Notes: a model not told the origin generated them from the sequence alone. Positions 26,156 through 26,267 are shown, numbered from the stretch's first letter. The stretch: 64,000 nt of DNA from Escherichia coli O157:H7 (GCF_013167455.1 NZ_CP038328.1); one strand, 5' to 3'. A program made the numbers and translations.

Positions 26156-26267
26156 ATGCCCCCCGTACTACATTTGCCAACTGTATGCTACGCCTGTGTT
26201 GCCATTTCTCTGGCCCACGGTTCGCTGTCGTTGTAGGCCCGGTAGCATGTGTACCGGGCCAGGGTTG

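What the first reader, a model, noticed from the sequence alone, without database searches (positions are those of the whole stretch)
26156..26267. Palindrome in the yeaG-yeaH intercistronic region
The 112-bp gap between the yeaG stop and yeaH start contains ggcccggta-gcatgtg-taccgggcc and a tgtaggcc REP-like core, which could stabilise the upstream yeaG message or attenuate yeaH expression.
Basis: seen in the sequence. Interest (0 to 1): 0.2.

Follow-up and report, generated by a model that had tools for sequence, protein, structure and literature searches.

The report
Relic REP hairpin between yeaG and yeaH
The palindrome is real and is a worn-down copy of REP, a common bacterial repeat; it folds into a hairpin in the yeaG-yeaH messenger RNA, yeaG transcripts end just after it, and it is an ordinary example of a long-known kind of element.

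Summary
The window is E. coli O157:H7, and the yeaG-yeaH gap is 26156-26267 (112 nt, genes on the - strand). A perfect 9-bp/7-nt-loop palindrome lies at 26236-26260, with GTAG at its foot on the + strand.

It is a REP-family element. A covariance model built only from GTAGGCCCGG-class REPs at unrelated metagenome loci finds three significant matches in the 64-kb window: the gdhA-ynjI BIME pair and this palindrome (28 bits, E 1e-5). In other Enterobacteriaceae the same spot holds an intact inverted REP pair. In E. coli the second REP has decayed and the first has lost its apical module.

On the mRNA the hairpin (-18 kcal/mol, no U-tract) starts 7 nt after the yeaG stop codon. Published Term-seq in K-12 places the dominant yeaG 3' ends 5-6 nt after the stem, in LB OD 2.0 and in M63. 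Published RNA-seq gives about twice as much yeaG as yeaH signal per nucleotide.

The most likely mechanism is a REP-type barrier to 3' exonucleases. No causal test has been done.

The gap also holds a conserved block complementary to the small RNA SdsR, just upstream of the yeaH ribosome-binding site; RIL-seq data support that interaction.

The finding is ordinary and of low interest.

The parts
26268..28202 (-). yeaG coding sequence (protein kinase YeaG, 644 aa); stop codon TAA at 26270-26268
   Evidence: ORF list; RefSeq annotation of an identical O157:H7 record and of K-12
26236..26260 (-). REP-1 hairpin as it occurs in the mRNA: GGCCCGGUA-CACAUGC-UACCGGGCC, 9-bp perfect stem and 7-nt loop, starting 7 nt after the yeaG stop codon and followed by UACAACGAC (no U-tract)
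   Evidence: The stem is invariant and only the loop varies among the E. coli variants read. The 36-nt region is present once in 5424 of 5426 complete genomes.
26233..26259 (+). The same element read as a DNA repeat: GTAG tag plus palindrome (GTAGGCCCGGTA-N8-ACCGGGC). The full-length match to the REP covariance model is in this orientation.
   Evidence: CM R1: 28.0 bits, E 1.3e-5 on the + strand against 13.6 bits on the - strand. The K-12 copy scores 30.1 bits.
26230..26231 (-). Positions equivalent to the Term-seq 'primary' yeaG RNA 3' ends of MG1655 (1868879 and 1868880), 5-6 nt downstream of the stem
   Evidence: Adams et al. 2021 eLife, PMC7815308, Supplementary files 1 and 3. Coordinates were transferred by alignment of identical flanks. 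The ends were measured in K-12, not in O157.
26199..26218 (-). Remnant of the second, inverted REP (GTGGGCCAGAGAAATGGCAA). It aligns with the intact GTAGGCCGGATAAGCG..GCATCCGGCAA of related genera, with an 11-13-nt deletion and a mutated tag.
   Evidence: Alignments A1 and A3. The intact partner is detected by the CM in L003, L004, L007, L011 and L016. The remnant itself is not detected by the CM, so this part is an inference from orthology.
26156..26182 (-). Conserved pre-yeaH block AGUUGGCAAAUGUAGUACGGGGGGCAU. Positions 26168-26182 (-27 to -13 of the yeaH AUG) are complementary to SdsR nt 17-33; GGGGGG at 26159-26164 is the likely Shine-Dalgarno sequence.
   Evidence: Near-invariant in 12 Enterobacteriaceae. 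SdsR complementarity keeps the same register in more than 15 genera. RIL-seq finds SdsR:::yeaG.yeaH.IGT chimeras (PMC10954441).
24872..26155 (-). yeaH coding sequence (YeaH/YhbH family, 427 aa)
   Evidence: The start codon is fixed by the conserved M..FIDRR N-terminus in 80 orthologues.
24839..24867 (-). Terminator-like hairpin followed by a T run directly after the yeaH stop codon; the likely end of the yeaGH operon
   Evidence: Consensus scan and sequence. Not studied further.

Best explanation
The palindrome is a relic REP (repetitive extragenic palindrome) of the GTAG-tagged GCCCGG..CCGGGC class. It is the better-preserved half of an inverted REP pair (BIME) that occupies the yeaG-yeaH spacer in Enterobacteriaceae.

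It is transcribed within the yeaGH operon mRNA and folds into a GC-rich 9-bp hairpin 7 nt after the yeaG stop codon. The hairpin has no U-tract, so it is not an intrinsic terminator.

The proposed mechanism is this. Transcripts that are cut or terminated further downstream are trimmed back by 3'-to-5' exonucleases, which stall a few nucleotides before the stem. This leaves stable yeaG-only RNAs ending 5-6 nt after the hairpin, so yeaG mRNA is more abundant than yeaH mRNA.

Shown: the sequence, the fold, REP family membership, orthologous REP pairs, RNA 3' ends at the hairpin in K-12, and a yeaG:yeaH RNA ratio of about 2:1.
Inferred: that exonuclease stalling, rather than termination, creates the ends; that the hairpin causes the ratio; and that O157 behaves like K-12.
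For: Hairpin: 9/9 complementary arms; -18 kcal/mol, z = -4.5; no T-run after it.

REP identity:
- GTAG sits at the foot of the hairpin.
- CM R1 was built from 11 distinct GTAGGCCCGG-class REPs taken from metagenome contigs that lack yeaG and yeaH.
- R1 gives exactly three hits with E < 0.1 in the window: the gdhA-ynjI REP pair and this element (28 bits, E 1.3e-5).
- In 298 kb of K-12 the yeaGH copy ranks 4th of 32, above classic Y- and Z1-type REPs, including those of malE-malF.

Orthology: REP-1 lies at the same place in L003, L004, L007, L011, L013, L016, L017 and L019, with an inverted Y-type REP-2 10-15 nt downstream in five of them.

RNA ends: MG1655 Term-seq 'primary' yeaG 3' ends at 1868879 (1211 reads, LB OD 2.0) and 1868880 (762 reads, M63), 76/75 nt upstream of yeaH and 5-6 nt after the stem. 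No curated yeaH 3' end is listed.

Coverage: RNA-seq baseMean is 5327.6 for yeaG and 1791.6 for yeaH; divided by 1935 and 1284 nt this gives about 2.0.

Published precedent: REPs resist exonucleases and define the steady-state 3' ends of many transcripts (PMC6061677).

Against Rho termination in the gap: the spacer after the hairpin is G-rich (C 16, G 26), not C-rich like a rut site.
Against: No mutant, half-life or nuclease-mutant data exist for this hairpin, so causality is untested.

The Term-seq read counts (about 10^3) are low compared with strong terminators nearby (10^5). A 2:1 decline along an operon can arise without any hairpin.

The element lacks some typical REP features. It is 25 nt rather than 35-40 nt, its stem has no mismatch, and its apical module is replaced. 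A sequence HMM of 32 canonical K-12 Y/Z REPs does not detect it at E <= 100.

Many gamma-proteobacteria have yeaG-yeaH spacers of 13-40 nt with no hairpin at all. The hairpin is therefore not required for the operon to work and may be a tolerated relic.
Confidence: 0.7

Rival explanations
1. The hairpin is a partial transcription terminator or attenuator. RNA polymerase stops at or just after it, through Rho assisted by the REP/BIME or through a non-canonical intrinsic signal. The mapped 3' ends would then be primary termination products, and yeaH is under-transcribed.
For: The 3' ends map 5-6 nt after the stem. BIME-associated transcription attenuation and direct REP roles in Rho termination are reported in the literature (Espeli 2001, as cited in PMC6061677). 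yeaH RNA is about half of yeaG per nucleotide.
Against: There is no U-tract after the stem. The downstream spacer is G-rich (C/G 0.6-0.7), unlike a rut region. No sense-strand Rho-termination region at yeaG-yeaH appears in the bicyclomycin data set. That experiment was done at LB OD 0.5, where the operon is poorly expressed, so this absence is weak evidence.
Confidence: 0.15
2. The hairpin mainly lowers YeaG synthesis. Because it lies within 15 nt of the stop codon, it stalls the terminating ribosome and triggers mRNA cleavage and trans-translation, which is the mechanism of Liang, Rudd and Deutscher (2015). This could act together with the exonuclease barrier.
For: The stem starts 7 nt after TAA. 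REPs fewer than 16 nt from a stop codon were reported to down-regulate translation of the upstream gene (summarised in PMC12306157). In 30 of 56 long orthologous spacers the best hairpin starts 15 nt or less from the stop codon.
Against: There are no ribosome-stalling or tmRNA-tagging data for yeaG. The original paper could not be read here. The element is shorter than the REPs tested in that work. By my own reckoning, with 7 spacer nucleotides the stem begins at about +14 from the P site, so a terminating ribosome may not need to melt it.
Confidence: 0.2
3. The element is a neutral relic of selfish DNA. A REP pair inserted into a permissive spacer and is decaying, and any effect on RNA ends is incidental and not selected.
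For: The second REP has decayed and the apical module of the first is lost. E. albertii has lost the GTAG tag. Lineages with 13-40-nt spacers have no hairpin. Spacer length tracks the presence of inserted palindromes, including an ERIC-like element in Citrobacter.
Against: The 9-bp stem is identical in the E. coli variants read, while the loop varies, and compensatory or wobble changes keep the stem in L003 and E. albertii. Of 58 spacers of at least 46 nt, 56 carry a compact hairpin of -12 kcal/mol or better, with sequences unrelated between genera. These hairpins are about 6 kcal/mol more stable than dinucleotide shuffles. They are more stable on the mRNA strand than on the opposite strand (35 vs 18, Wilcoxon p = 2e-4). 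These tests do not correct for shared ancestry or for base composition.
Confidence: 0.3
4. The element works at the DNA level, as a binding or cleavage site for the proteins known to act on REP/BIME elements (DNA gyrase, IHF, DNA polymerase I, TnpA-REP).
For: It belongs to the REP family and keeps the GTAG tag. Such interactions are documented for BIMEs (references listed in PMC12306157; PMC3479197).
Against: TnpA-REP binding needs the mismatched bases (bulge) of the stem as well as GTAG (PMC3479197), and this stem is perfect and short. Gyrase and IHF act on composite BIMEs, whereas here the partner REP is degenerate.
Confidence: 0.05

Closest known systems
REP / BIME (palindromic unit) elements of E. 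coli and other Enterobacteriaceae
   Same: A GC-rich extragenic palindrome with the conserved GTAG at the foot of the hairpin. It gives a full-length match to a REP covariance model (28-30 bits). Orthologous loci carry the typical inverted REP/iREP pair.
   Different: It is 25 nt (28 with the tag) rather than 35-40 nt. The stem is perfect, without the characteristic mismatch. The inner GCG..CGC module is replaced by 8 nt. The stem is GCCCGGTA, not the GCCGGAT (Y) or GCCTGAT (Z) forms that dominate in E. coli. The partner REP is degenerate. It is not detected by an HMM of canonical K-12 REPs.
Intercistronic REP mRNA stabilisers (malE-malF, hisJ-hisQ; Higgins 1982, Newbury 1987)
   Same: A REP hairpin between two cistrons of one operon; RNA 3' ends just after the hairpin; the upstream gene's RNA more abundant than the downstream gene's. 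The precedent is cited in PMC6061677.
   Different: A single short hairpin rather than two or three full REPs. The ratio is modest (about 2:1). No deletion or half-life experiment exists for yeaG-yeaH.
Protective 3' stem-loops of Rho-dependent or processed transcripts (Dar and Sorek 2018)
   Same: A stable stem-loop without a U-tract defines the steady-state 3' end. 24% of such ends were at annotated REPs.
   Different: Here the end lies inside an operon, and the downstream sequence shows no C>G bias suggestive of Rho loading.
REP-mediated translational down-regulation (Liang, Rudd and Deutscher 2015)
   Same: [quoted passage not shown]
   Different: Stalling and tmRNA tagging are untested for yeaG, and this element is shorter than those studied.
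Rho-independent (intrinsic) terminator
   Same: A GC-rich stem-loop at an RNA 3' end.
   Different: No U-tract: the stem is followed by UACAACGACAG. The consensus scan does not call it.

Membership tests
REP (repetitive extragenic palindrome) | GC-rich palindrome able to form a stem-loop | tested here: met
   9-bp perfect arms and a 7-nt loop; -18 kcal/mol, z = -4.5
REP (repetitive extragenic palindrome) | Conserved GTAG tetranucleotide 5' of the hairpin foot (PMC3479197) | tested here: met
   GTAG at 26233-26236 on the + strand, directly abutting the stem. It is one of only three GTAG-tagged palindromes in 64 kb.
REP (repetitive extragenic palindrome) | Extragenic location | tested here: met
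   Lies in the 112-nt yeaG-yeaH spacer
REP (repetitive extragenic palindrome) | Sequence-plus-structure similarity to dispersed copies at other loci | tested here: met
   CM R1, built from REPs of 14 metagenome contigs without yeaG or yeaH, scores 28.0 bits (E 1.3e-5) in the window and 30.1 bits in K-12, rank 4 of 32
REP (repetitive extragenic palindrome) | Match to the canonical E. coli Y/Z1/Z2 consensus by sequence alone | tested here: not met
   An nhmmer profile of 32 canonical K-12 REPs gives no hit at the site at E <= 100, while it does find the 52137-52166 REP
REP (repetitive extragenic palindrome) | Length 35-40 nt with an imperfect stem (mismatch or bulge) | tested here: not met
   25-nt perfect hairpin; 12 apical model positions are replaced by 8 nt
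REP (repetitive extragenic palindrome) | Many copies of the same variant in the same genome | tested here: inconclusive
   blastn finds one place per E. coli genome, but a bona fide REP used as a control also gives a median of one. No other GCCCGG-stem REP was found in 298 kb of K-12 plus the window. No whole-genome scan was possible.
BIME (inverted REP pair) | [quoted passage not shown] | tested here: inconclusive
   The pair is intact in L003, L004, L007, L011 and L016. In E. coli the partner is only an alignment-inferred remnant (26199-26218) that the CM does not detect.
REP (repetitive extragenic palindrome) | Binding and cleavage by the REP-associated transposase TnpA-REP (RAYT) | not testable with these tools
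   Published work requires both GTAG and the stem mismatch. The mismatch is absent here, so non-binding is predicted but not shown.
REP-type mRNA stabiliser (3' exonuclease barrier) | RNA 3' ends map a few nucleotides downstream of the transcribed hairpin | tested here: met
   MG1655 Term-seq ends at 1868879/1868880, 5-6 nt after the stem, in LB OD 2.0 and M63. These are published data for K-12, not O157.
REP-type mRNA stabiliser (3' exonuclease barrier) | Upstream cistron RNA more abundant than downstream cistron RNA | tested here: met
   baseMean is 5327.6 (yeaG, 1935 nt) against 1791.6 (yeaH, 1284 nt), about 2.0 per nucleotide. This is a rough figure from a single data set.
REP-type mRNA stabiliser (3' exonuclease barrier) | Removing the hairpin shortens the half-life of the upstream RNA; the ends depend on PNPase or RNase II | not testable with these tools
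   Needs mutants and a rifampicin chase
Intrinsic (Rho-independent) terminator | Stem-loop immediately followed by a U-tract | tested here: not met
   The stem is followed by UACAACGACAG, and the terminator scan does not call it
REP translational down-regulator (Liang 2015) | [quoted passage not shown] | tested here: met
   7-nt spacer CAACCCU. The criterion is taken from PMC12306157.
REP translational down-regulator (Liang 2015) | Ribosome stalling, mRNA cleavage and tmRNA tagging of the upstream protein | not testable with these tools
   No data found for yeaG
Rfam RNA families | Match at or above a family's gathering score | tested here: not met
   The only match is RydC at 19.7 bits against a gathering score of 48, E = 3.8

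The most novel reading that the evidence does not exclude
The intercistronic hairpin may not be a mere relic. Unrelated palindromic elements may have been recruited or retained repeatedly, directly downstream of yeaG, in many gamma-proteobacterial lineages because a decay barrier there sets the YeaG:YeaH ratio. In Enterobacteriaceae the hairpin would work together with the conserved SdsR site in front of yeaH. The two genes of the 'metabolic brake' operon could then be regulated separately after transcription: yeaG-only RNAs ending at the hairpin would escape the SdsR site of yeaH.
Probability: 0.2. Interest if true: 0.4.

Novelty: new member of a known kind. Interest (0 to 1): 0.15.

Why it matters
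It matters little beyond annotation.

It adds a degenerate, probably unannotated REP to the catalogue. It also explains a published but undiscussed Term-seq 3' end inside the yeaGH operon.

YeaG and YeaH act together as a starvation 'metabolic brake' whose dosage affects recovery from nitrogen starvation (PMC10954441). A hairpin that uncouples yeaG and yeaH mRNA levels, next to an SdsR site in front of yeaH, could be relevant to how their ratio is set. That would be a modest, operon-specific insight.

The case also shows a practical point. Short, decayed REPs are missed by sequence profiles but recovered by a small covariance model together with comparison of orthologous loci.

Tried and rejected
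- Rfam scan of 24000-29000 at E <= 10: only a sub-threshold RydC match, taken as chance.
- Intrinsic-terminator and sigma-70 promoter scans: nothing in the gap.
- RefSeq annotation of K-12: the feature table available here shows no REP features anywhere, even at the known gdhA-ynjI BIME, so their absence at yeaG-yeaH says nothing.
- blastn copy counting in 5426 E. coli genomes: one place per genome. A canonical REP used as a control also gave a median of one, so the test is too insensitive and was discarded.
- HMM of 32 canonical K-12 REPs: no hit. HMM of the GCCCGG-class family: only the 5' arm matched (E 0.2-1.1). This motivated the covariance model.
- Relaxed 'GTAG + any fold' scan of K-12: 184 hits, mostly chance matches in coding sequence; used only to harvest canonical REPs.
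- Unconstrained RNAduplex of SdsR against the spacer: meaningless whole-length duplexes. The windowed version puts the best O157 site at the conserved block, but its energy is not significant on its own (21 of 200 shuffles as good).
- My first compact-hairpin script tested only even lengths and missed the 25-nt hairpin; it was replaced.
- The -12 kcal/mol threshold is weak, because dinucleotide shuffles of these GC-rich spacers reach a median of -13.4.
- Papers or supplements not held: Liang 2015, Liang and Deutscher 2016, Li 2014, Schmidt 2016, the Dar and Sorek 2018 tables, and EHEC Term-seq. The RepRanger and TERMITe supplements do not mention yeaG.
- A sigma-54 promoter reading of TTGGCA-N-GC in the conserved block was rejected by eye, because the GG-to-GC spacing is wrong.

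Full report
**Where we are.** The window is E. coli O157:H7. A 1112-nt stretch around the finding is 100% identical to strain PV15-279 and 95-100% identical to 5424 of 5426 complete E. coli genomes. RefSeq annotates yeaG and yeaH there. Both genes are on the - strand: yeaG at 26268..28202 and yeaH at 24872..26155.

**The observation.**
- The palindrome is exactly as described. The arms are GGCCCGGTA (26236-26244) and TACCGGGCC (26252-26260), 9/9 complementary, with a 7-nt loop.
- 'tgtaggcc' lies at 26232-26239, so a GTAG tetranucleotide abuts the foot of the hairpin on the + strand.
- On the transcribed (-) strand the RNA reads UAA-CAACCCU-GGCCCGGUA-CACAUGC-UACCGGGCC-UACAACGACAG.
- The 37-nt RNA folds at -18 kcal/mol against -8.8 +/- 2.1 for shuffles (z = -4.5, 0 of 200 as good).
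- Perfect hairpins of at least 9 bp are expected about 0.004 times in 112 nt.
- No U-tract follows the stem, and the terminator scan does not call it. Rfam gives only a chance-level RydC match.

**What it is.** Four tests did not settle the identity on their own.
- The RefSeq table available here shows no REP features at all, even at a known BIME.
- blastn found the palindrome once per genome, but a canonical REP used as a control behaved the same way.
- A sequence HMM built from 32 canonical Y/Z REPs, harvested from 298 kb of K-12, found the window's canonical REP but not this palindrome.
- A sequence HMM of the dispersed GTAGGCCCGG-class family described below matched only the 5' arm of the palindrome (E 0.2-1.1).

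Two other lines of evidence settled it.

First, orthologous loci. Eighty yeaG-yeaH loci from different species were fetched.
- In Pseudescherichia, Leclercia, Enterobacter, Pluralibacter, Phytobacter, Superficieibacter and an Escherichia lineage labelled E. coli (L003), the first thing after the yeaG stop codon is a hairpin of the form GCCCGG..CCGGGC-CTAC.
- In five of these it is followed, 10-15 nt later, by an inverted Y-type REP, GTAGGCCGGATAAGCG..GCATCCGGC. This is a classic BIME pair.
- In O157, K-12 and E. albertii the second REP carries an 11-13-nt deletion and a mutated tag (26199-26218).
- None of the 5424 complete E. coli genomes has the intact L003-type spacer.

Second, an independent family model.
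- A metagenome scan for GTAGGCCCGG-N(8-24)-CCGGGC recovered a dispersed family, GTAGGCCCGGTAAGCG..GCGCCACCGGGC. It has 17 copies on 14 contigs, none of which encodes yeaG or yeaH.
- A covariance model (R1) built from 11 distinct members gives three significant hits in the 64-kb window. These are the gdhA-ynjI REP pair (41.8 and 32.1 bits) and the yeaG-yeaH palindrome in its GTAG orientation (28.0 bits, E 1.3e-5). The opposite orientation scores 13.6 bits, and no other hit has E below 0.3.
- In the K-12 sample the yeaG-yeaH copy ranks 4th of 32 REP hits (30.1 bits). It scores above the classic Y (21.5 bits) and Z1 (about 20 bits) REPs, including those of malE-malF.
- The model alignment shows that both arms and the tag match perfectly, while the 12-position apical module is replaced by 8 nt.

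The element is therefore a REP-family member, but an atypical one. It is short, its stem has no mismatch, its stem type (GCCCGG) is rare in E. coli, and its partner has decayed. Published work says the stem mismatch is needed for binding by the REP transposase (PMC3479197). The element is therefore probably an immobile relic; this is an inference.

**Variation.**
- Among the E. coli variants read (O157, K-12, strain EC02), only loop positions differ (CACAUGC, CACAUGU, CACAUAU) and the 9-bp stem is identical.
- In L003 two stem pairs changed: U-A became G.U and A-U became G-C. In E. albertii several pairs became G.U, which still pair in the mRNA strand.
- Between genera, the seventh pair switches between U-A and C-G.

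**What it does.**
- yeaG and yeaH form one operon, transcribed from RpoS- and RpoN/NtrC-dependent promoters (PMC4664914, PMC10954441).
- The Term-seq catalogue of Adams et al. 2021 (PMC7815308) lists 'primary' yeaG 3' ends at MG1655 1868879 (+), with 1211 reads, and at 1868880 (+), with 762 reads. These lie 76 and 75 nt upstream of the yeaH ORF.
- The sheet boundaries show that these entries belong to the LB OD 2.0 and M63 tabs. There is no entry in LB OD 0.4, where this stationary-phase operon is barely expressed.
- The printed flanking sequence places the ends at ...UACCGGGCCUACAA and ...UACAAC, i.e. 5-6 nt after the stem. These positions are equivalent to window 26231/26230.
- No curated yeaH 3' end is listed.
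- In the nitrogen-starvation RNA-seq of McQuail et al., the baseMean is 5327.6 for yeaG and 1791.6 for yeaH, about 2.0-fold per nucleotide.

There is no U-tract, and the downstream spacer is G-rich rather than C-rich (C 16, G 26). I therefore favour the classic REP mechanism: 3'-to-5' exonucleases trim back to the hairpin and stall, as described for REPs and for the protective stem-loops of Rho-dependent transcripts (PMC6061677). Termination at the hairpin remains possible. So does the Liang-type effect, because the stem lies only 7 nt from the stop codon and the reported limit is under 16 nt (PMC12306157). None of these mechanisms has been tested causally at this locus.

**Is it selected?**
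- Across 81 spacers, 56 of the 58 that are 46 nt or longer hold a compact hairpin of -12 kcal/mol or better (median -19.2). None of the 23 shorter spacers reaches -10.
- The hairpin sequences are unrelated between genera: REPs, an ERIC-like element in Citrobacter, and long palindromes in Yersinia, Vibrio and Shewanella.
- They are about 6 kcal/mol more stable than dinucleotide shuffles, although 12% of shuffles reach the observed value.
- They are more stable on the mRNA strand than on the opposite strand (35 vs 18, p = 2e-4).
- This pattern fits either repeated recruitment of a decay barrier or the simpler view that spacers are long because palindromic mobile elements landed in them. The many lineages with 13-40-nt spacers and no hairpin show that the hairpin is dispensable. 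I could not separate the two readings.

**What else is in the gap.**
- The last 27 nt before the yeaH start codon, AGUUGGCAAAUG(U/C)AGUACGGGGGGCAU, are nearly invariant across Enterobacteriaceae.
- Positions -27 to -13 are complementary to SdsR nt 17-33 (8 bp, a 2-nt bulge, then 7 bp). The same register recurs in more than 15 genera.
- RIL-seq found SdsR chimeras with 'yeaG.yeaH.IGT': 43/36/65 fragments at the onset of nitrogen starvation and 64/98/149 after 24 h (p = 5e-28). YeaH rises about 2-fold in a delta-sdsR strain.
- This site is already in the published data and is separate from the palindrome.

**Verdict.** The element is a degenerate member of a very well-known family, acting in the way such elements have been known to act since the 1980s. 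Interest is low.

Noticed in passing
window 26156-26182 (- strand): A nearly invariant 27-nt block lies just upstream of the yeaH start codon. Its 5' part, AGUUGGCAAAUGUAG, is complementary to SdsR nt 17-33. Published RIL-seq lists SdsR:::yeaG.yeaH.IGT chimeras, so this is probably a second SdsR site that represses yeaH translation.
   Followed up: partly
window 26168-26173 (- strand): In O157 and K-12 the block reads AUG-UAG, a start codon followed at once by a stop codon. Most other Enterobacteriaceae have AUG-CAG in frame with yeaH, which would add MQYGGH to the protein. The same C-to-U change turns a C-G pair with SdsR into U.G.
   Followed up: no
window 52074-52102 and 52137-52166: A canonical inverted REP pair (BIME) lies in the gdhA-ynjI intergenic region. 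These are the only other GTAG-tagged palindromes in the window, and they served as a positive control.
   Followed up: yes
L006 and L008 (Citrobacter), about 3480-3570: The yeaG-yeaH spacer is 202 nt long. Besides a GGCCCGG..CCGGGCC hairpin it carries an insert that resembles the ERIC/IRU repeat (GTGAATCCCAGGAGCGTACATAAGTACGTGACTGGGGTGAGCG). The resemblance was recognised from memory only.
   Followed up: no
L028, L033, L034 (Yersinia) spacers: Very long hairpins (about 20-23 bp, down to -42 kcal/mol) occupy the same intercistronic position. Their sequence is unrelated to REP, so they probably belong to a Yersinia-specific palindromic repeat.
   Followed up: no
L004 4847-4926 (Pseudescherichia vulneris): A second intact REP pair sits just downstream of yeaH in this species (CM scores 38.4 and 39.9 bits).
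   Followed up: no
window 26210-26216 / 26256-26262: In O157, CUGGCCC and GGGCCAG can pair over 39 nt, joining the 5' side of the hairpin to the REP-2 remnant (-19.7 kcal/mol, similar to the simple hairpin). K-12 has GGGCCUG at that position, so the alternative pairing is not conserved.
   Followed up: partly
window 23250-24593 vs K-12 cdgI: The gene after yeaH (cdgI) is 447 aa in O157 and is annotated as a sensor-domain diguanylate cyclase. In K-12 it is 491 aa (1476 nt). The yeaH-cdgI gap is also about 130 nt longer in O157.
   Followed up: no
NC_000913.3 feature tables (L001, L083): The K-12 annotation supplied by the tool lists no REP or repeat_region features, even over a known BIME. The absence of annotation therefore cannot be used as evidence about REPs.
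   Followed up: yes
MG1655 1870212 (- strand), antisense to yeaH: Adams et al. list a Rho-dependent (bicyclomycin-sensitive) antisense 3' end within yeaH, which indicates antisense transcription across the 3' part of the operon.
   Followed up: no
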